Virus record (IMG/VR): IMGVR_UViG_2706794694_000001
DNA from: a virus
Lineage: Duplodnaviria > Heunggongvirae > Uroviricota > Caudoviricetes
DNA: 8,471 nucleotides
Strand: one strand, 5' to 3'
The stretch's first letter is position 1. Each line of letters begins with the position of its first letter. Shown here in pieces: positions 1 to 8,471 of this stretch. A program made the translations under genes and the position numbers. The notes beneath the pieces are model-generated. The model was not told the DNA's origin and made no database searches. It saw only the letters and a list, made by a program, of their open reading frames with translations.

Positions 1-83
1 AGGGACAGCTGATAGAAACAGAAGCCACTGGAGCACCTCAAAAACACCATCATACACTAAATCAGTAAGTTGGCAGCATCACC
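1..83 (-). mobile_element. IS1 terminal fragment (left end of the element, inverted; continues beyond the window start)
   Basis: Positions 1-83 are the reverse complement of the first 83 nt of IS1 as I recall it; 61-83 (ATCAGTAAGTTGGCAGCATCACC) is the reverse complement of the 23-bp terminal inverted repeat. The insA 5' end (GTG start, V/M-A-S-V-S-I-S-C-P) reads on the minus strand from 28 towards 1. Match is from memory, not a search. Confidence 0.88.
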
Positions 84-1832: not shown

Positions 1833-2615
1833 TTATGCTGCCCTTTTCATTGCGAATGGAACGCGAACAAACACGATCTCTTTATAGCAGCGGCAGTTTG
1901 GCAGCTCGCCCGCGTGGCCGGTCATGCCGTCCAAAGTTGGAGGTGAATCCCAGCGGACGAATTTACCTTTCATGTGATCGTGGGAATCTCGGACATCGCC
2001 ATCATCGGCTGTACGCCAAATATAACCATCCGAGCCAATAGCTATCGCTCGGGCCATATCCAGCGCGCCCGTTGCTCTTCCCAGTTCCGTTCGGGCAATC
2101 AGATCGGCCCTAGACTTAGCAACATCGCCGGTAGATGCAATCTCTTTAGCAAACTGCTCCGCCCGACCACCGGTGACAACAGCCTCTATCGCTTTGTTCT
2201 GGATGTCGTACACCCTGTCTGCGGCCTCGAGAGGCAGAGATTTGATGTACTTGACCTGTTCGGCGATGATGGATTGCATCACCTGGCCCACAGGAGCGCT
2301 TTCCACAAGATTGCGGAGCTCGCGACTGATGTTCTTGCTGTGTTGCCGCCAAACTTTCTCGTTCTGCCGGGTTAGGTCCGCAGTAAAGTTTTCCGCGACC
2401 TTTGTCGCCCAGGGGGTGATGATTTCACTGTAACGCTCCAGCGCCGCAATAATTTCCGTGATACTGTCATTTGAACCATCGTAGCGACCATTTACGATGT
2501 CTCCGACCGCCCTCGCTATCCTGCGTAGGCTGGTTCGATACCGGATTTCCGCCTGACGGCTCCTGCGGTTCGTCATCAGGTTCGCCGATGCCGGGCGGCG
2601 CTTCATCTTCGGCAT
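1833..2615 (-). CDS. phage head morphogenesis protein, Mu F-like / SPP1 gp7 family (minor head protein)
   Basis: 260-aa ORF whose C-terminus carries the PNCRC-type motif of this family (…HAGELPNCRCYKEIVFV). GAGGA lies about 10 nt before the ATG at 2615. The start overlaps the portal 3' end by 149 nt, so the true start is uncertain. TAA stop. Confidence 0.8.
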   Translation of the reverse strand: MPKMKRRPASANLMTNRRSRQAEIRYRTSLRRIARAVGDIVNGRYDGSNDSITEIIAALERYSEIITPWATKVAENFTADLTRQNEKVWRQHSKNISRELRNLVESAPVGQVMQSIIAEQVKYIKSLPLEAADRVYDIQNKAIEAVVTGGRAEQFAKEIASTGDVAKSRADLIARTELGRATGALDMARAIAIGSDGYIWRTADDGDVRDSHDHMKGKFVRWDSPPTLDGMTGHAGELPNCRCYKEIVFVRVPFAMKRAA

Positions 2616-3549
2616 TCTCGATGTCCTCGTCGGTAATGGATGCCCCGATGCCGGTTACGTCAGAATTTTCTCGCAAATCAGTCATAGCGGCTTTCAGTGT
2701 CATCAGACCATCACCCAGCGCCGTACTGATTGCGTTGGTGGTGTTTAACGCCACCGTTGAGCGATCGACATCAGACATTTGCCAGAGCGGGTTAAACTCA
2801 AACGTGAAATCGTCCGGCAGCGGCTTGCCAAGTTCCGAACGATGCATGATGTCCAGTATCCGCCGCACCGGAAGACGTAAACGCCTCTCCTGCAACGAAC
2901 TGATGCGATCGTAATAGTTGGCAAGGTCTGCATCACCGGTAGAAAATCCTTTCGGGGACTGTCCGAACAACCGCACCAGTGGGATACCAACAGCGCCACT
3001 AATCTGTTCTACAAACTGCGAAAGGATGTCATCCAGACCACTGAAGCTGTACTGATGGGTTTCAAACTTATCCCGCGAGTCCATGAGCGTCATGCCTTCA
3101 TTACTCTGGAACTGTCGAATCAGGTCGATATTCTTCAGCAACGCTTCATACGCAGGACCACCAAGTGCGATAAGCTCGCGTAGCTTCTCCACGCTGTAGG
3201 TACGCAAATGCGCCTTGTAGACCAGCTGCGCCGCGCCGACAGTAGCGCTGTCGAACGCGGTAAGACGATCCCAGATACGCTCTACAACCGACATTCCCCA
3301 TTCGTTCTCGGTCATCTTCTGCTGAAATGGCAACGTGACGCCATCAAAGCGAATCAGGCGACTGTGATGAATGCGCCAGGCAGGAATTCCCGTTGCTGTG
3401 GTCACCACATCGTAAAACTCAGGTTTACCCAGGTCCGGCCCCATATCTTTAATGCGGCGGGTCAGTGCCGGGTCGACCATCCAGCGGTCGAGCGGGAGAA
3501 TCCCCTTAAACTTGCCCTTACCGATGGTTTCGGGTCGCAGCGGGGTCAT
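2467..3549 (-). CDS. phage portal protein, largest uninterrupted ORF (C-terminal 360 codons of the portal reading frame)
   Basis: ORF sits right after terL in a terS-terL-portal-morphogenesis order, has an acidic C-terminal tail typical of portals, and ends in TGA. The same frame continues upstream to 3933 but carries two TAG codons (see the pseudogene feature). Confidence 0.75.
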   Translation of the reverse strand: MTPLRPETIGKGKFKGILPLDRWMVDPALTRRIKDMGPDLGKPEFYDVVTTATGIPAWRIHHSRLIRFDGVTLPFQQKMTENEWGMSVVERIWDRLTAFDSATVGAAQLVYKAHLRTYSVEKLRELIALGGPAYEALLKNIDLIRQFQSNEGMTLMDSRDKFETHQYSFSGLDDILSQFVEQISGAVGIPLVRLFGQSPKGFSTGDADLANYYDRISSLQERRLRLPVRRILDIMHRSELGKPLPDDFTFEFNPLWQMSDVDRSTVALNTTNAISTALGDGLMTLKAAMTDLRENSDVTGIGASITDEDIENAEDEAPPGIGEPDDEPQEPSGGNPVSNQPTQDSEGGRRHRKWSLRWFK

Positions 3550-3933
3550 TGGTGCCTACCCCTCAATCATGATGAAACCCACCGCGCCGCCGTAGAGGCG
3601 CGACCATTTCAGCACGTCATTCAGCGCATCCCAGATTTGCAACTCATCCAGTTGTGATTCGAGAATGCCACGATCTTTTGCATCAATTTCCGAAGTGATG
3701 CGAATGCCTTTGCGGGTCATATCATCCGGGATAGCATCGACTGCTTCGCCGATGATCTAGGATGAACGATAGGACCATTCCACCAGCATGCGGTTACGAC
3801 TGGTGAAATTAGCCCGGTAGGTGGATGCTGAGTGCTGGTTAGGTGTCTGCATCCCTACGCGGGCAATAAAATTCTCATAACCATCAGCTGTGGCCTGCAC
3901 AGTTCGCCGCAGGGCTTGTTTGTTTCGTGCCAT
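2467..3933 (-). pseudogene. full-length portal reading frame (~489 codons) interrupted by two in-frame amber (TAG) codons
   Basis: An ATG at 3933-3931 overlaps the terL stop as ATGA. 3933-3549 = 384 = 128x3, so it is in frame with the 360-aa ORF. Translation MARNKQALRRTVQATADGYENFIARVGMQTPNQHSASTYRANFTSRNRMLVEWSYRSS*IIGEAVDAIPDDMTRKGIRITSEIDAKDRGILESQLDELQIWDALNDVLKWSRLYGGAVGFIMIEG*APMTPL…; the stops are plus-strand CTA at 3757-3759 and 3556-3558. No frameshifts. Confidence 0.7.
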
Positions 3934-5336
3934 CAGGCCTGTCTCCCCAGCTGTTCCCAGATATCCAGCGATGTATCGATTGGCGCGAAGGCCATAATGA
4001 ATGCATCAGCAACGTTTGGTGACGGTATCTCGCGTTTTGCGAGGTCTTTTTTACTTTCGACCATCACACGTCCGTTACGGTCGAAATCACGATGAGGTGT
4101 TGTCAGTTCCAGTTTCAGCTTTTCAAGCAACGGACAACGAGAATCTATGCTGATCAGCTCATCCACAGGATACTGTTCTCCGTTGTTAATGGCGTTAAAC
4201 GTATTTCTGAAACGGTCAGCCACCAGCCACCATGCCTGAGCCTTAAGATTTGCGAAAAAGTCTTTGTTGGGGATGCCGTTGTACTCGTCATCTGGCTCAT
4301 GCACACCAGCACCGGCGTTAAACCTCTGGTAATTCACACGTCGCGCGTATGCGTTCTCGCTCTTCCGGTCAGCGTTAATTTCAGAGAATTTAGCACCGGC
4401 AGACGCACCAACACCGATAGAGTCGTAAACAATATCTGCTTCACGCTCCAGCGCCGCCTGATAAGTACGCTGGCAGCTCTTCAGTAATTCATCTTCTTTG
4501 GCCTTCCATTCGTCGGCCCAGAAAACAACGGATCCGTGACGGTAAACGTTAGCGCACTTATCTGTACCACTGTCAGCCACGTCAAAGCCAATACGCTTTC
4601 TTCCACTGGGTTCGAAATTTAACGTTTTGTGCGCATCCACTGCGGCTTCTATCCAAGACAGTTTGATGATTGCCGCATCATCATCAGACTCCGGAACGCC
4701 CTCATACACATGTTTAAAACCATCCGGATCACGGCGTCGCGCCGCGTCGATAACCTTAAGCATGGTGTCAGACAGAAACGGATTTTCGTCATAGTTAATT
4801 TTGCGGATGAGAGTGCCTTCGGGCGGATCAACAACGAAGTTGCGCCAGACGAAATCAGTAACAAGTCCGGGGTTGAATATGAACCAGCATTCCGAACCCT
4901 CTTTACGGATCGTTGGCTCCAGAATTTTCCACTGGTATTCCGTCAGTGCGTGGGCTTCTTCCAGCCACAACACATCGATCCCCTCCAGTGACTTAATTTC
5001 TTCGATGTTGCGCCATAATCCATAAAAAACAAATTCCGAGCCAGTAACCCGGTTAATGATTTTGTTGTTCAGAATACGGAAACGGTGCCGCAGACCAAAC
5101 CTGTCTATCTGAATTTTGAGCAGGGTATACACCGACTCTTCGATTTTATTCTGGATCTGACGGGCACAACAAAAACGCAGGGTGTATTTATTCGACAGAA
5201 ATATGGCAATGCCAGCGGCATCCCATGATTTTGACGATGACCGACCACCATAAAGCACTTTGTTACGTGCCCGCATAGTCCAGAAACTACGTAAAGCCGG
5301 ATTCAGCGTCGGTTTGGATGTCAGAGTAGAAGTCAT
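3933..5336 (-). CDS. terL: terminase large subunit (PBSX / Terminase_3-type ATPase-nuclease)
   Basis: N-terminal motif TLNPALRSFW…ARNKVLYGGRSSSKSW (Walker A) and a WLEEAH-type Walker B region. TGA stop at 3933-3935 overlaps the portal ATG. Start is ambiguous: the ORF is open to 5444 but the upstream part reads as out-of-frame terS sequence; ATG at 5336 chosen (alternatives 5354 and 5363). Confidence 0.85.
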   Translation of the reverse strand: MTSTLTSKPTLNPALRSFWTMRARNKVLYGGRSSSKSWDAAGIAIFLSNKYTLRFCCARQIQNKIEESVYTLLKIQIDRFGLRHRFRILNNKIINRVTGSEFVFYGLWRNIEEIKSLEGIDVLWLEEAHALTEYQWKILEPTIRKEGSECWFIFNPGLVTDFVWRNFVVDPPEGTLIRKINYDENPFLSDTMLKVIDAARRRDPDGFKHVYEGVPESDDDAAIIKLSWIEAAVDAHKTLNFEPSGRKRIGFDVADSGTDKCANVYRHGSVVFWADEWKAKEDELLKSCQRTYQAALEREADIVYDSIGVGASAGAKFSEINADRKSENAYARRVNYQRFNAGAGVHEPDDEYNGIPNKDFFANLKAQAWWLVADRFRNTFNAINNGEQYPVDELISIDSRCPLLEKLKLELTTPHRDFDRNGRVMVESKKDLAKREIPSPNVADAFIMAFAPIDTSLDIWEQLGRQA

Positions 5337-6051
5337 TGAGGTCACGCTCTCCATTGCCATCATCAATACCTGCATCACGGCGAAGACGATCAGCCTCCAG
5401 AGACACCTTATCAGTGGCGGCCTTGCGGTAGGCTGTATCAGCAAATATTTTTCCTACCGTCGCAAGCGTGCCAACGATGGACTCAATACGAACTGTATTG
5501 CGCATCATTGCTTTCTCGGCGGCGCTGATATTTTCAATCAGCATCTTCCTTTCCTGGTCCCCATTAGCATCTTCCAGCGACACCAACCACCGACCAATAT
5601 TCTCTGCAGCGACAAGGTTGTTAGCACGAAGGCGAAATAATTCGTCCTCGAGCGTCAACGCTTTAGCGTCCTCTATCACCTCATCTTTGAGCAGAAGGCG
5701 ACGGGCATAACCACCGTGTTTTAATGCCTGCTGGTTACCGGGTTGGAATGGGTTAGTCGGGGGATCGGTACGCATTCCGCGTATCGGTTTCGTATCCGGT
5801 GTAGATTCTGTTTTTAGTTGCGTACTTTTTTGTGTAAGGCCAGTAATGGCAGGCTTTCTGCTGGTACGCACTTTCCTTTTTTGCGTACCATTTTTGCAAA
5901 CCTGCGTACCGCCACTGCGTGCCCAACCAAGCTTTTTGGCCCTCTTCCTGATAGCCCCTTCTGTAACGCCGTATTTCTCGCCTATATCACGGAGGCTAAG
6001 GACTCCGGCCCGGTATGCCGATTCGATGGCCTCCCAGTCCGGTTTTGCCAT
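5287..6051 (-). CDS. terS: terminase small subunit (N-terminal helix-turn-helix DNA-binding domain)
   Basis: 254-aa ORF directly upstream of terL. N-terminus MAKPDWEAIESAYRAGVLSLRDIGEKYGVTEGAIRKRAKKLGW is a typical terminase-small-subunit HTH. AGGAAG Shine-Dalgarno 7 nt before the ATG at 6051; TAG stop at 5287-5289. Confidence 0.8.
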   Translation of the reverse strand: MAKPDWEAIESAYRAGVLSLRDIGEKYGVTEGAIRKRAKKLGWARSGGTQVCKNGTQKRKVRTSRKPAITGLTQKSTQLKTESTPDTKPIRGMRTDPPTNPFQPGNQQALKHGGYARRLLLKDEVIEDAKALTLEDELFRLRANNLVAAENIGRWLVSLEDANGDQERKMLIENISAAEKAMMRNTVRIESIVGTLATVGKIFADTAYRKAATDKVSLEADRLRRDAGIDDGNGERDLNDFYSDIQTDAESGFT

Positions 6052-6165
6052 GATTATGCTTCCTGTGATTTACTGTTATCGCTGCCTGTCACAATAGGTT
6101 GCTTTAATTCTTCCTCATCACTCACTCCTGCGACGCTCCGTGGCAGGGCCCCCCACAGGAGTACC

Positions 6166-6195
6166 TTGTAAATGTAAGGTGTTTAAGCCTAAATT
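6166..6195 (+). promoter_or_regulatory. putative sigma70-like promoter for the YqaA/DedA-like gene (-35 TTGTAA 6166-6171, 18-nt spacer, -10 TAAATT 6190-6195)
   Basis: Pattern match only, 4/6 to consensus in each hexamer; located about 55 nt upstream of the ATG at 6249 in an AT-rich intergenic region. Confidence 0.2.
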
Positions 6196-6248
6196 AAGTC
6201 GTATCACGGTTAAATAGCAAAGAAAAATTCACAGAAGGAAAGACATTG

Positions 6249-6758
6249 ATGGAGTGGATAAATGCTTTGATGAACTATTTTGTACTTCATCCATATCGCC
6301 TATGGGGGCTTCTTTTTATAATAGCGTTCACAAAATCCACTTTACTCATTTCGGCGATATTGCCACCAGCATCAATTATGATGGCCACTGTAATTACAGT
6401 CAGCAAGACGACTCTTTCACCATGGGAAGCTGGAATCACGGTCATGAGTGGCGCATGGTGCGGTACTATCGTTAATTACCATCTTGGTATAATAATTGGG
6501 CATATCCCTCAACTTGCATGTATAATATCAAGCCGTTCCAATACAATAGAACGGGTTCGCCTTCAGTTGCAAAATAACTCTGTGTCAATACTTTTCACTT
6601 CGCGCTTTATCGCCGTGCTGCGTTATATTGCTCCTTTGGTGGCAGGAATGTTGCAACTTCATCCAGTGAAAGTGTATACAGTGAGTCTGATTTCAGCTGC
6701 TAGCTGGTCAGCACTTTATGTTGGTAGTTTTAGCTTCGTGTTGCCTTTTTTTAGCTAA
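6249..6758 (+). CDS. YqaA-like DedA-superfamily inner membrane protein (likely prophage moron)
   Basis: Only plus-strand gene. ATG at 6249 is preceded by AGGAAAG; an in-frame TTG lies at 6246. Multi-pass hydrophobic protein with DedA/YqaA-type motifs (…LPPASIMMA…SPWEAG…GAWCGTIVNYHLG…SRFIAVLRYIAPLVAG…). Visibly lower GC than the flanking phage genes. TAA stop. Confidence 0.7.
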   Translation: MEWINALMNYFVLHPYRLWGLLFIIAFTKSTLLISAILPPASIMMATVITVSKTTLSPWEAGITVMSGAWCGTIVNYHLGIIIGHIPQLACIISSRSNTIERVRLQLQNNSVSILFTSRFIAVLRYIAPLVAGMLQLHPVKVYTVSLISAASWSALYVGSFSFVLPFFS

Positions 6759-6846
6759 ACTGCCCATAAAAAGCTCTTGCGAATCCAGCTTCCCCCATTC
6801 CTCTGACAACAGAATCTGATTTGAAGGATAATGAGTAAAATTACCG

Positions 6847-7317
6847 CTACCCCCCAAGGCATTGGATCCTGATGTACTCCTGAAGCATTCTCAATGCTGT
6901 CTGGTCGCTGATGATTCCGTCCCGGATACCGAGAACGTTTCGTCCAGCAACTGGAGAGAGTTCGACGGTGGCATCATTGCCCATGCCGGAGGCGCTGGAG
7001 GTTTCGGCTGAGGATGGCACAGGGCATTTTCCTTTGACGAGCACCCGACCACCATTATCAAGCTTGCGCCGAAGAGCATCATTTTCAGCTTTCGCATCAG
7101 CTAACTCCTTCGTGTATTTTGCATCGAGCGCAGCAACATCACGCTGACGCATCTGCATGTCAGTAATGGTTGCGTTCGCCAGCTTCAGTTCTCTTGCGTT
7201 TTTGTCGCGCTGCTCTTTGTAGGTAATGGCGTTATCACGGTAATGATTAACAGCCCATGACAGGCGGACGATGATGCAGATAACCAGAGCGGAGATAATC
7301 GCGGTGACTCTGCTCAT
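6847..7317 (-). CDS. Rz: Rz-family i-spanin (inner-membrane spanin subunit), copy 1, non-lambda C-terminal allele
   Basis: [17 protein letters not shown]…[13 protein letters not shown]…[27 protein letters not shown] is near-identical to lambda Rz in the N-terminal half, with a divergent but homologous C-terminal half. Start taken as ATG 7317-7315, preceded by a 42-nt copy of the endolysin 3' end in ATGA arrangement (the ORF is open from GTG 7329). TAG stop. Confidence 0.85.
6891..7097 (-). CDS. Rz1: Rz1-family o-spanin lipoprotein, copy 1, embedded in Rz in another frame
   Basis: 68-aa ORF nested inside Rz copy 1 in the +1 frame: [19 protein letters not shown] (signal peptide with lipobox VVGC) followed by proline-rich [11 protein letters not shown], the hallmark of embedded Rz1. 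Confidence 0.7.
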
Positions 7318-7369
7318 TGCTGCCCCCACAAACAGACTTCACGCTCAATCTCACGACGGGTCATCAGCC
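7081..7369. repeat. direct repeat copy A of the Rz N-terminal region plus endolysin 3' end (289 bp); the partner is 7530-7921
   Basis: 7081-7146 is identical to 7530-7595 (offset 449) and 7267-7369 is identical to 7819-7921 (offset 552). Identity breaks at 7080/7529 and 7370/7922. Confidence 0.9.
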
Positions 7370-7869
7370 GCTCTCTGAGGGTGAAATAATCCCGTTCAGC
7401 GGTGTCTGCCAGTCGGGGGCTGGTTGCATTATCCACGCCGGAGGCGGTGGTGGCTTCACGCACTGACTGACAGACTGCTTTGATGTGCAACCGACGACGA
7501 CCAGCGGCAACATCAGCGCGCAGAGTTTCATTTTCAGCTTTCGCATCAGCTAACTCCTTCGTGTATTTTGCATCGAGCGCAGCAACATCACGCTGNNNNN
7601 NNNNNNNNNNNNNNNNNNNNNNNNNNNNNNNNNNNNNNNNNNNNNNNNNNNNNNNNNNNNNNNNNNNNNNNNNNNNNNNNNNNNNNNNNNNNNNNNNNNN
7701 NNNNNNNNNNNNNNNNNNNNNNNNNNNNNNNNNNNNNNNNNNNNNNNNNNNNNNNNNNNNNNNNNNNNNNNNNNNNNNNNNNNNNNNNNNNNNNNNNNNN
7801 NNNNNNNNNNNNNNNNNNGACGATGATGCAGATAACCAGAGCGGAGATAATCGCGGTGACTCTGCTCAT
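7314..7869 (-). CDS. Rz: Rz-family i-spanin, copy 2, lambda-type allele; interrupted by the N-run and C-terminally truncated/fused to a duplicated endolysin 3' fragment (probably non-functional as it stands)
   Basis: ATG at 7869-7867 overlaps the endolysin TGA (ATGA); [17 protein letters not shown] then runs into the N-run. After the gap: …[77 protein letters not shown], then reads into [16 protein letters not shown] (the endolysin C-terminal sequence) instead of the lambda Rz tail. Frame continuity across the gap cannot be verified. Confidence 0.55.
7364..7546 (-). CDS. Rz1: Rz1-family o-spanin lipoprotein, copy 2, lambda-type, intact 60 aa
   Basis: [60 protein letters not shown] is near-identical to lambda Rz1 as recalled: lipobox VVGC, PPPPP stretch, embedded in the Rz copy 2 frame. 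Confidence 0.75.
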   Translation of the reverse strand: MRKLKMKLCALMLPLVVVGCTSKQSVSQCVKPPPPPAWIMQPAPDWQTPLNGIISPSESG

Positions 7870-7921
7870 TGCTGCCCCCACAAACAGACTTCACGCTCAA
7901 TCTCACGACGGGTCATCAGCC
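7530..7921. repeat. direct repeat copy B (contains the 223-nt N-run); the partner is 7081-7369
   Basis: See copy A; the flanks on both sides of the N-run match copy A exactly. Confidence 0.9.
7596..7818. other. assembly gap (223 N)
   Basis: Contiguous run of n characters. Its length is not a multiple of 3 and is 103 nt longer than the equivalent interval in repeat copy A, so it is a placeholder of uncertain size. Confidence 0.97.
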
Positions 7922-8363
7922 CTTTCCATTGCTTACCGCCAGCATATGTCCAGCGACATAGCTGGTCACATGCGCCTTTGATATAGCCCTGGTTTATTTT
8001 GCGAAGAAGCGTCGATGTTCTGAAATTGCCAGCGCCCACGTTGTAAACGAACGAGTAAAGAGCGCCGCGCGTTGTTTCCGGTATATCGACTTTGATGTAC
8101 GGGTTAATTTGTCTGGCGACAGTGGCAAGGTCTTTATTCAGGAGAGCTTTGCATTCTGCTTCGGTATACGTTTTACCAGGCATGATGTCTTTTCCGGTGT
8201 GTCCGTGACATACAGTCCATACACCAATGATATCTTTGTATAGTATGTAGCTGACACCTTCCAGACCATCGTTACCACCTGGGCCAGTGATTAACACAGA
8301 TGCTATAGCAACAGCCCCGCCACCAATAGCAACTGCAACAGCCTTGCGTAATGATGGCGACAT
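7866..8363 (-). CDS. R: SAR endolysin (P21 R-like lysozyme with N-terminal signal-arrest-release domain)
   Basis: 165-aa ORF near-identical to the recalled P21/DLP12-type lysozyme: G/A-rich weakly hydrophobic N-terminus [23 protein letters not shown] (SAR domain), catalytic E35/D44/T50 spacing of T4-lysozyme-like enzymes, C-terminal …[27 protein letters not shown] Shine-Dalgarno before the ATG at 8363; TGA stop overlaps the Rz start. Confidence 0.92.
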
Positions 8364-8385: not shown

Positions 8386-8471
8386 TAGACTGGCCCCCTG
8401 AATCTCCAGACAACCAGTATCACTTAAATAAGTGATAGTCTTAATACTAGTTTTTAGACTAGTCATTGGAG
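8386..8471 (+). mobile_element. IS2 left end (terminal inverted repeat and leader; continues beyond the window end)
   Basis: 8386-8471 (TAGACTGGCCCCCTGAATCTCCAGACAACCAGTATCACTTAAATAAGTGATAGTCTTAATACTAGTTTTTAGACTAGTCATTGGAG) matches the recalled IS2 left end, with one possible mismatch (CAACCAGTATC here versus CAACCAATATC as recalled). The transposase orfA start would lie just past the window. Match is from memory. Confidence 0.88.

What the first reader, a model, noticed from the sequence alone, without database searches (positions are those of the whole stretch)
6166..6846. AT-rich, oppositely oriented YqaA/DedA-family membrane-protein gene between spanins and terminase
This is the only plus-strand gene. 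It has a strong RBS and a possible promoter of its own, a composition visibly more AT-rich than the surrounding phage genes, and sits where lambdoid phages carry morons (the position of bor in lambda). DedA-superfamily proteins act in membrane homeostasis, but a prophage-borne YqaA-like protein has no obvious phage role. It could be a lysogenic-conversion or superinfection-exclusion factor, or a modulator of the adjacent lysis proteins that act on the same membrane. No recognisable defence-system domains are present.
Basis: partly seen in the sequence, partly recalled or inferred. Interest (0 to 1): 0.5.

Follow-up and report, generated by a model that had tools for sequence, protein, structure and literature searches.

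The report
Prophage cargo gene for DedA membrane protein
A decaying lambda-like prophage of Shigella/E. coli carries, just after its lysis genes, an imported gene for a small DedA-family inner-membrane protein; this is an ordinary example of phage cargo, and its only unusual point is a lysine where other DedA proteins have an essential glutamate.

Summary
ORF 6249-6758 (+), 169 aa, matches Pfam VTT_dom/DedA (E 9e-14, above the curated cutoff). It has 42% GC against 52% for the rest of the window, and it lies between Rz/Rz1 and the small terminase, convergent with Rz exactly as bor is in lambda.

It is cargo. Related prophages have 57 bp where this window has 798 bp. Only 6 of 5,426 complete E. 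coli genomes carry the insert.

It is not YqaA-like. It belongs to a small, sharply bounded DedA clade that is otherwise chromosomal in Enterobacter, Kosakonia, Citrobacter, Hafnia, Morganella and Arsenophonus.

A 595-bp unit (the ORF plus about 75 bp upstream) recurs in a different Citrobacter youngae prophage, again convergent with a spanin gene. It also recurs next to dinI in Citrobacter chromosomes.

Every clade member has K where YqjA has E39, and A at D51. Both arginines are kept. The gene is under purifying selection (dN/dS about 0.15-0.23). Half of the nearest relatives are DedA-PAP2 fusions.

Most likely it is a lysogen-expressed lipid-phosphate (C55-P) or phospholipid translocator acting in envelope homeostasis. 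This function is inferred, not shown. No convincing promoter or terminator was found.

RefSeq already annotates it as a DedA family protein. Interest is low to moderate.

The parts
6249..6758 (+). DedA-superfamily (VTT domain) inner-membrane protein gene, 169 aa plus stop. RefSeq annotates the TTG at 6246 as the start (170 aa, WP_011069285.1).
   Evidence: ORF list. Pfam VTT_dom E 9.2e-14. RefSeq annotation 'DedA family protein' in L001. The exact protein occurs on at least 1000 contigs, mostly Shigella flexneri.
6235..6239 (+). Shine-Dalgarno-like AAGGA, 9 nt upstream of the ATG. Citrobacter and Kosakonia homologues have AGGAG at the same place.
   Evidence: Sequence; upstream alignments.
6174..6768 (+). 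The 595-bp unit that travels with the gene: about 75 bp of 5' leader or regulatory DNA, the ORF, and 10 bp downstream.
   Evidence: blastn gives 82% identity to the C. youngae prophage (L007/L039) and 77% to the C. meridianamericanus chromosome (L011/L012). In both, homology starts at 6174-6179 and ends at 6768-6769. Upstream alignment.
6166..6195 (+). Weak sigma-70-like match, TTGTAA-18 nt-TAAATT (8 of 12). It straddles the left junction of the mobile unit. It is a candidate only.
   Evidence: Relaxed scan. Not reported by the consensus scan, which needs 9 of 12. The -10 part is not conserved in Citrobacter.
6059..6856 (.). The whole 798-bp insertion relative to related 'empty-site' prophages, which have a 57-bp spacer here. 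The flanking pieces 6059-6173 and 6769-6856 are of unknown origin.
   Evidence: blastn against L002/L003; junction alignments. The insert is found in only 6 of 5,426 complete E. coli genomes and in none of 50,697 phage records.
6847..7329 (-). Rz i-spanin gene, with Rz1 o-spanin embedded at 6891-7097. It is convergent with the DedA gene.
   Evidence: Pfam PF03245 E 6e-32 and PF06085 E 3.8e-21.
5287..6051 (-). Small terminase subunit gene, divergent from the DedA gene.
   Evidence: phrog_370 'terminase small subunit', E 7.5e-95. It lies upstream of the large terminase at 3933-5444 (PF04466).

Best explanation
The feature is a horizontally acquired cargo gene (a moron in the broad sense). It sits at the lysis/packaging junction of a lambdoid prophage that is now a decaying, IS-bounded remnant in Shigella flexneri and related E. 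coli.

It encodes a short (169 aa) DedA-superfamily inner-membrane protein. The protein belongs to a discrete clade that is normally a stand-alone chromosomal gene in Enterobacterales. In the Citrobacter lineage the gene lies at prophage and att-site borders, and it was probably picked up there by lambdoid phages.

Because it is antisense to the late operon, it is most plausibly expressed in the lysogen rather than during lytic growth.

Its most likely activity is that of its relatives: moving a lipid with a phosphate head group (undecaprenyl phosphate or an anionic phospholipid) across the inner membrane, and so supporting envelope homeostasis of the host. The binding site keeps the two arginines and the tryptophan. 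The conserved glutamate is replaced by lysine, which suggests altered or absent proton coupling.

Shown: identity, cargo status, clade membership, residue pattern, purifying selection.
Inferred: expression in the lysogen, substrate, benefit to the host.
For: Identity:
- Pfam VTT_dom E 9e-14.
- hhalign probability 97% to YqjA, YohD and YabI.
- The AF2 model (pLDDT 76, pTM 0.72) is all-helical, with helix-break-helix hairpins at 15-52 and 111-134.

Cargo status:
- 798 bp here against 57 bp in prophages whose flanks are 88-90% identical.
- Present in 6 of 5,426 E. coli genomes.
- GC 0.42 against 0.52.
- Same topology as lambda bor.

Mobility:
- The same 595-bp unit lies in a different C. youngae prophage, with a GH19 endolysin and a GpA terminase, again convergent with a spanin gene.
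- It lies beside dinI next to icd in C. freundii.
- It lies beside dinI at the end of a Mu-like prophage.

Chromosomal clade:
- 70 species-level loci, including about 25 Enterobacter species and Arsenophonus endosymbionts with genomes of 0.85-0.93 Mb.
- Only 12 representatives at E <= 1e-30 among 1.84 billion proteins.

Selection:
- dN/dS is 0.15-0.23.
- All 20 Shigella/E. coli copies are intact, while the portal has 2 stop codons, TerL is IS-split in 7 loci and Rz is truncated in at least 5.

Mechanism lead:
- R119, R125 and W153 are conserved. They correspond to YqjA R130/R136 and UptA R112/R118/W146, which are implicated in function and C55-P binding (PMC6849406; PMC11474028).
- 71 of about 130 nearest out-of-clade representatives are DedA-PAP2 fusions, against about 1.3% of all dedA genes (bioRxiv 10.1101/2022.02.03.479048). 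That fusion class was used there to argue for Und-P transport.
Against: - No promoter reaches the consensus threshold upstream, and no intrinsic terminator follows. Autonomous expression is therefore unproven, and AT-rich foreign DNA is often silenced.
- The glutamate equivalent to YqjA E39 / UptA E32 is a lysine in every clade member, and D51 is alanine. E39 and D51 are required in YqjA/YghB, and D51A fails to complement (PMC6849406; bioRxiv 10.64898/2026.09.20.752871). The canonical mechanism therefore cannot simply be transferred.
- The scores against the curated UptA and DedA equivalog models are far below cutoff: 19.9 against 250, and 31 against 236.
- The near-identity of the Shigella copies may reflect recent clonal origin rather than selection.
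- No paper in the searchable library mentions this protein.
Confidence: 0.45

Rival explanations
1. Silent passenger. The gene was captured by a phage and is merely hitch-hiking in a dead prophage remnant. It is not expressed, or expressed without consequence, in Shigella.
For: No recognisable promoter or terminator. AT-rich DNA. The surrounding prophage is decaying: portal stop codons, an IS1 end and an IS2 end, and a holin gene cut. The copies differ by only 0-3 nt, as expected for a young clone.
Against: The ORF is intact in all 20 copies examined, while neighbouring genes are repeatedly broken. dN/dS against the other phage-borne copy is 0.23. The 75-bp upstream leader is co-inherited in three different contexts.
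Confidence: 0.25
2. Superinfection exclusion or phage defence. The membrane protein, expressed from the prophage, blocks DNA entry or growth of other phages. It might do so by altering Und-P-linked surface glycans, or by forming mixed dimers with host DedA proteins.
For: Small inner-membrane proteins in moron positions of temperate phages often act this way (general knowledge; PMC3594210). One relative lies beside a DarT/macro-domain locus. DedA proteins dimerise through their re-entrant hairpins (bioRxiv 10.64898/2026.09.20.752871).
Against: No PADLOC match. Most clade members are single chromosomal genes in varied, non-island contexts, including tiny endosymbiont genomes that have little need for phage defence.
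Confidence: 0.12
3. Lysis modulator. The protein acts together with the adjacent holin, endolysin and spanin proteins on the same membrane, for example by tuning proton-motive force and hence holin triggering.
For: It lies next to spanin genes in two unrelated prophages. DedA mutants have altered membrane potential (PMC10846249).
Against: It is convergent with, and antisense to, the late lysis transcript. Related phages with the same lysis cassette lack it. The clade is mostly not phage-associated. It is retained where the holin or Rz is destroyed. This junction is a general cargo hot-spot: bor in lambda, and other AT-rich ORFs in L005 and L007.
Confidence: 0.06

Closest known systems
E. coli YqjA / YghB (DedA superfamily, PRK10847-type)
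   Same: Same Pfam domain. hhalign probability 97.5%, E 6e-12, over 139 columns. The R130/R136 equivalents (R119, R125) and S52 (S42) are conserved, and the predicted re-entrant hairpin architecture is the same.
   Different: About 23% identity. It is 50 residues shorter and lacks the last C-terminal transmembrane helix. E39 is K, G50 is P and D51 is A, invariant across the clade. NCBIfam score is 31 against a cutoff of 236.
UptA / PA4029-type undecaprenyl-phosphate flippases (DedA superfamily)
   Same: The arginine pair and tryptophan implicated in C55-P binding are conserved (PMC11474028). The nearest out-of-clade relatives are heavily enriched in the DedA-PAP2 fusions that were used to infer Und-P transport.
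   Different: It is far below the UptA equivalog cutoffs: 19.9 against 250, and 16.3 against 300. UptA E32, which pairs with R118, is a lysine here. No functional data exist.
Lambda bor and other lambdoid morons
   Same: Same genomic slot and orientation: immediately downstream of Rz/Rz1, convergent, before the packaging genes. Foreign GC content, and absent from close relatives. Its product is likewise an envelope protein.
   Different: Bor is an outer-membrane lipoprotein with a documented serum-resistance role. Here the product is a polytopic inner-membrane protein. Neither the promoter nor the terminator expected of a classic moron could be recognised.
E. coli YqaA
   Same: Short DedA-superfamily protein.
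   Different: hhalign probability is only 23.6% (E 9e-4). YqaA lacks both conserved arginines, which this protein keeps.

Membership tests
DedA superfamily (Pfam PF09335 VTT domain) | Significant profile match above the curated gathering score | tested here: met
   52.4 bits against a cutoff of 33.9, E 9.2e-14, covering 119 of 123 profile positions.
DedA superfamily (Pfam PF09335 VTT domain) | Two conserved membrane-embedded arginines (YqjA R130, R136) | tested here: met
   R119 and R125 align with them. R is present in 137 and 135 of about 150 relatives.
DedA superfamily (Pfam PF09335 VTT domain) | Membrane-embedded acidic residues (YqjA E39, D51) | tested here: not met
   The aligned residues are K29 and A41. 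K occurs only in this clade, while 126 of about 130 out-of-clade relatives have E. The D51 position is variable in relatives (A, S, T, V).
DedA superfamily (Pfam PF09335 VTT domain) | Polytopic helical fold with two re-entrant helix-break-helix hairpins | tested here: inconclusive
   The AF2 model (pLDDT 76.3) shows breaks at 30-40 and 119-123 between short helices. The first hairpin has pLDDT of only 51-56. No solved DedA structure was available for comparison: best Foldseek PDB E-value 2.0.
DedA superfamily (Pfam PF09335 VTT domain) | [F/Y]xxx[R/K] motif after the glycine-rich helix (motif definition recalled from memory) | tested here: not met
   The aligned segment is Y77-H-L-G-I81, against YqjA Y-I-Q-G-R. 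YabI also lacks the basic residue.
YqaA subfamily | Closer profile similarity to YqaA than to other DedA paralogues | tested here: not met
   hhalign probability 23.6% to YqaA, against 97.1-97.5% to YqjA, YohD and YabI.
UptA-type undecaprenyl-phosphate transporter (NCBIfam NF052604/NF052605 equivalogs) | Score above the equivalog cutoff | tested here: not met
   19.9 against 250, and 16.3 against 300. This lowers the claim of membership, not the claim of a similar activity.
UptA-type undecaprenyl-phosphate transporter (NCBIfam NF052604/NF052605 equivalogs) | C55-P binding, or protection against amphomycin/MX2401 | not testable with these tools
   Requires native mass spectrometry or a complementation assay.
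Moron (phage cargo transcription unit) | Extra DNA between genes that are adjacent in related phages | tested here: met
   798 bp here against 57 bp in L002/L003, whose flanks are 88-90% identical.
Moron (phage cargo transcription unit) | Base composition different from surrounding genes | tested here: met
   GC 0.40-0.42 against 0.50-0.57.
Moron (phage cargo transcription unit) | Own promoter | tested here: inconclusive
   No upstream site reaches 9 of 12. The best is 8 of 12 at 6166-6195. A 75-bp leader is co-inherited with the ORF.
Moron (phage cargo transcription unit) | Own terminator | tested here: not met
   No terminator-like site lies downstream. The 3' region folds no better than shuffled sequence, z = +1.08.
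Moron (phage cargo transcription unit) | Expression from the repressed prophage | not testable with these tools
   Needs transcript data from lysogens.
Known anti-phage defence systems (PADLOC) | Match to any defence-protein model | tested here: not met
   0 families at E <= 1.

The most novel reading that the evidence does not exclude
Lambdoid phages mobilise a charge-reversed DedA variant (lysine in place of the otherwise conserved core glutamate). In the lysogen it works as a proton-independent undecaprenyl-phosphate or anionic-lipid scramblase, or as a dominant partner in mixed dimers with host DedA proteins. Either way it would rewire lipid-carrier recycling in Shigella. Consequences could include changed O-antigen modification capacity, polymyxin or cationic-peptide resistance, or susceptibility to other phages. 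This would be a new class of lysogenic-conversion function.
Probability: 0.1. Interest if true: 0.6.

Novelty: new member of a known kind. Interest (0 to 1): 0.3.

Why it matters
If the gene is expressed, it would be a rare case of a temperate phage carrying a lipid-carrier or membrane-homeostasis transporter into a pathogen whose serotype conversion already depends on phage-borne Und-P-linked glycosylation. The clade also offers a natural experiment for DedA mechanism, because the glutamate thought to couple transport to protons is replaced by lysine while the arginines are kept. As it stands, this is a correctly spotted but ordinary cargo gene that public databases already annotate as a DedA family protein.

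Tried and rejected
1. PhoP-box idea. TGTTTAAGCCTAAATTAA at 6180-6197 resembles TGTTTAW-N4-TGTTTAW, but with 3 mismatches. Six such matches occur in the window against 1.6 expected, several of them in this AT-rich patch, and the second half-site is not conserved in Citrobacter. I dropped it as evidence.
2. Sigma-70 and terminator scans found nothing convincing upstream or downstream.
3. An Rfam scan of 5900-7000 gave only a chance snoRNA hit, E 0.53.
4. There are no terminal direct or inverted repeats at the insert borders, so no transposon or att signature.
5. The first AF2 model, from 15 sequences, was too poor to use (pLDDT 58.7).
6. Foldseek of the better model against the PDB and BFVD gave no significant match. 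The best viral hit was a Megaviridae 'SNARE associated Golgi protein' at E 0.94. The afdb50 library was unavailable.
7. A PDB sequence search found no relative.
8. The phage database has no DNA match, and the only protein matches are 24-30% identical, in mostly unannotated or non-phage-looking records.
9. Gene-neighbourhood inference for the chromosomal homologues found no conserved operon. The mgtE neighbour in Enterobacter and the corA neighbour in Morganella are not a consistent pattern.
10. Literature searches for this protein, or for prophage DedA genes in Shigella, returned nothing.
11. I could not test whether Shigella has lost a chromosomal DedA paralogue, because there is no whole-genome access.

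Full report
**1. Observation**

The window is the late region of a lambdoid prophage, read on the minus strand. In order it carries:
- a cement/minor capsid protein (99-605);
- DUF2213 (609-1829);
- a Mu-F-like head morphogenesis protein (1833-2615);
- the portal (2467-3933);
- the large terminase (3933-5444, PF04466);
- the small terminase (5287-6051, phrog_370, E 7.5e-95);
- then, after the region of interest, Rz (6847-7329, PF03245) with embedded Rz1 (6891-7097, PF06085);
- and an RrrD-type lysozyme (7866-8363, PF00959).

Between the small terminase and Rz lies a single plus-strand ORF. It starts at TTG 6246 or ATG 6249 and ends at 6758, giving 169-170 aa. An AAGGA Shine-Dalgarno sequence lies 9 nt before the ATG.

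GC falls to 0.40-0.42 across 6151-6750, against 0.50-0.57 on both sides. The ORF has GC 0.418 and GC3 0.38, against 0.519 for the rest of the window.

The protein matches Pfam VTT_dom (the DedA/SNARE-associated domain) at E 9.2e-14, 52.4 bits against a gathering score of 33.9. The 99.9%-identical locus in E. coli FDAARGOS_943 is annotated 'DedA family protein', WP_011069285.1, and is the only plus-strand CDS within that phage late region.

**2. It is cargo**

About 1,900 complete E. coli genomes carry DNA like the flanks. Only 6 of 5,426 carry the 798-bp stretch 6059-6856, always at 99% identity or more and always beside the Rz gene.

In prophages whose small-terminase and Rz flanks are 88-90% identical to the window (L002, L003), the two flanks are separated by 57 bp instead of 798 bp.

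None of 50,697 phage records has the DNA.

The position and orientation are those of bor in lambda: immediately after Rz/Rz1, convergent, before the packaging genes.

The six E. coli carriers are IS-rich, Shigella-like genomes. The exact protein is recorded on at least 1,000 contigs, mostly S. flexneri, with some S. sonnei, S. dysenteriae and E. coli.

In RMDEC465 the gene keeps the same lysis cassette on its right but has a different terminase module on its left. It therefore sits on a mosaic junction.

No terminal repeats mark the insert.

**3. What travels**

Homology to relatives elsewhere begins at 6174-6179 and ends at 6768-6769. The shared unit is the ORF, about 75 bp upstream and 10 bp downstream.

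The unit is 82% identical to a copy in a Citrobacter youngae prophage of a different type, with GH19 endolysin, separate spanins and a GpA/DUF1441 terminase. There it is again convergent with the o-spanin gene, and on its other side it abuts a 5'-truncated rrrD-type lysozyme plus Rz/Rz1.

It is 77% identical to copies that follow a dinI gene in three settings:
- in the C. meridianamericanus chromosome;
- beside icd, a classical lambdoid attachment site by general knowledge, in C. freundii;
- at the end of a Mu-like prophage, next to a DarT/macro-domain locus.

The simplest reading is that a chromosomal gene lying at prophage borders in Citrobacter was captured by lambdoid phages and carried into the Shigella/E. 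coli lineage. This is inference.

**4. Which DedA**

The clade is small and sharply bounded.
- A word-indexed profile search drops from 146 bits to 82 bits.
- An exhaustive HMM search of 1.84 billion representatives finds only 12 at E <= 1e-30, against 4,761 at E <= 1e-3.
- In a one-genome-per-species collection it occurs in about 25 Enterobacter species (about 50% identity), Kosakonia (72%), Citrobacter (57-78%), Lelliottia, Huaxiibacter, Morganella (37%) and Proteus myxofaciens. It also occurs in many Arsenophonus, including endosymbionts with genomes of 0.85-0.93 Mb. Hafnia appears in the protein search.
- Neighbours are not conserved: mgtE in Enterobacter, and between an EamA-family gene and corA in Morganella.

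Profile-profile comparison puts the clade about equally far from YqjA (probability 97.5%, E 6e-12), YohD (97.3%) and YabI (97.1%), and far from YqaA (23.6%).

Scores against NCBIfam equivalog models for DedA (31 against 236) and UptA (19.9 against 250) are far below cutoff.

**5. Residue pattern**

Alignment with the E. coli paralogues, confirmed by hhalign, gives these correspondences from YqjA to this protein:

| YqjA | This protein |
|---|---|
| E39 | K29 |
| G50 | P40 |
| D51 | A41 |
| S52 | S42 |
| R130 | R119 |
| R136 | R125 |

The protein also lacks YqjA's last transmembrane helix.

K-S-T and P-P-A-S are invariant in 37 clade members. Among the best 150 representatives, every sequence with K belongs to the clade. 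Of the others, 126 have E, one has D and one has Q. The D51 position is commonly A, S, T or V in these relatives. R119, R125 and W153 are almost universal.

E39, D51, R130 and R136 are required for YqjA/YghB function (PMC6849406). D51A, R136A and S52C fail to restore alkaline growth (bioRxiv 10.64898/2026.09.20.752871). In UptA, E32 pairs with R118, and E32A, R112A, R118A and W146A each lower C55-P binding (PMC11474028).

The distinctive feature of the clade is therefore a charge reversal at the core glutamate, with the phosphate-binding arginines retained.

The AF2 model from 54 sequences (pLDDT 76.3, pTM 0.72) is all-helical, with helix-break-helix elements at 15-52 and 111-134. The first has low confidence.

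No solved structure or catalogued viral protein matches significantly.

**6. Selection and decay**

dN/dS between the Shigella copy and the Citrobacter/Kosakonia copies is 0.15-0.23.

All 20 Shigella/E. coli copies examined are intact. There are four alleles, differing by V48I, L89F or A36S.

The surrounding prophage, by contrast, is decaying:
- the portal has two in-frame stop codons in the window;
- the window is bounded by an IS1 end (1-83) and an IS2 end (8386-8471) that removes all but the last bases of the holin gene;
- TerL is split by an IS in 7 related loci, and Rz is truncated in at least 5.

This fits retention of the DedA gene, but the clone is young, so it is not proof.

**7. Function**

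Direct evidence is lacking. There are three leads.

(a) Family biology. DedA proteins include Und-P flippases (UptA, V. cholerae YghB, PA4029), a PE transporter (PetA) and the PMF-linked YqjA/YghB (PMC9876793, PMC12893004, PMC10193950, PMC10846249).

(b) Fusions among the nearest relatives. Of about 130 nearest out-of-clade representatives, 86 are 400 aa or longer. Of those, 71 carry a PAP2 lipid-phosphatase segment. In the Pfam sample, 5 of 6 long proteins had PAP2 and 4 also had LssY_C; a home-made HMM was used for the rest. [quoted passage not shown] Ranking by HMM score is not a phylogeny, so this is suggestive only.

(c) Retention in very small Arsenophonus genomes suggests a housekeeping envelope role.

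Orientation antisense to Q-antiterminated late transcription argues for expression in the lysogen, as with bor (inference). However:
- no upstream site reaches the sigma-70 scan threshold, and the best is 8 of 12 at 6166-6195;
- no terminator follows the gene;
- no Rfam element is present.

A PhoP-box-like sequence at 6180-6197 is no better than chance.

**8. Verdict**

The YqaA label and the promoter are not supported. A role in lysis is unlikely, and defence is unsupported (no PADLOC hit).

The gene is already annotated as a DedA family protein. No paper in the searchable library discusses it.

It is a new, phage-mobilised member of a known protein family sitting in a known cargo slot. The one point of mechanistic curiosity is the clade-wide change of the core glutamate to lysine. 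Interest is low to moderate.

Noticed in passing
window 2467-3933 (-): The portal (DUF1073) gene has two in-frame stop codons, at codons 59 and 126. The 99.85%-identical copy in E. coli FDAARGOS_943 is annotated intact. The prophage in this window is therefore defective.
   Followed up: partly
window 7370-7818: A run of 223 N (7597-7819) is preceded by a second, diverged Rz/Rz1 piece (Rz1-like ORF 7364-7546) and a duplicated lysozyme 3' end. Near-identical contigs (L023, L030) go straight from Rz to the lysozyme without this segment. It looks like a scaffold gap or collapsed repeat from another prophage's lysis cassette.
   Followed up: partly
window 1-83 and 8386-8471: The window ends match an IS1 end and an IS2 end. 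The IS2 end cuts the class II holin gene, leaving only about its last 23 nt. The lysis cassette here therefore has no holin.
   Followed up: partly
L007 7291-7972 (Citrobacter youngae prophage): The DedA unit directly abuts a 5'-truncated rrrD-type lysozyme followed by Rz/Rz1. A complete GH19 endolysin/spanin cassette lies on the other side. This makes two lysis modules, one of them broken, flanking the cargo gene, which suggests recombination between prophages.
   Followed up: partly
L107 (C. freundii record NZ_CP056259.1, labelled plasmid): This 82-kb 'plasmid' record carries ars-dinI-DedA-icd-rluE-mnmA-hflD-purB, which looks like chromosomal DNA. The dinI-DedA pair lies right beside icd, a lambdoid integration site.
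   Followed up: no
L036 9500-14300: Next to the dinI-DedA pair and the end of a Mu-like prophage lie genes for an SRAP peptidase, a SMEK-domain protein, a macro-domain protein and DarT-HD. This is a possible DarTG-type defence island.
   Followed up: no
L046 6614-7723 and L094 8520-9470: The chromosomal homologues lie beside Mg2+ transporter genes in two genera: mgtE in Enterobacter and corA in Morganella. [quoted passage not shown]
   Followed up: no
L002/L003 about 6160-6216 (empty-site prophages): The 57-bp spacer that replaces the insert contains a perfect hairpin, GAGCCACCTCTTGAAGTGGCTC, between Rz and the small terminase. It is absent from the window.
   Followed up: no
L005 5370-5918 (E. 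coli RMDEC465): Another plus-strand hypothetical gene (182 aa) lies between the DedA gene and a different terminase module, and an Acb1-family (anti-CBASS) gene follows TerL. This shows that the junction accumulates cargo.
   Followed up: no
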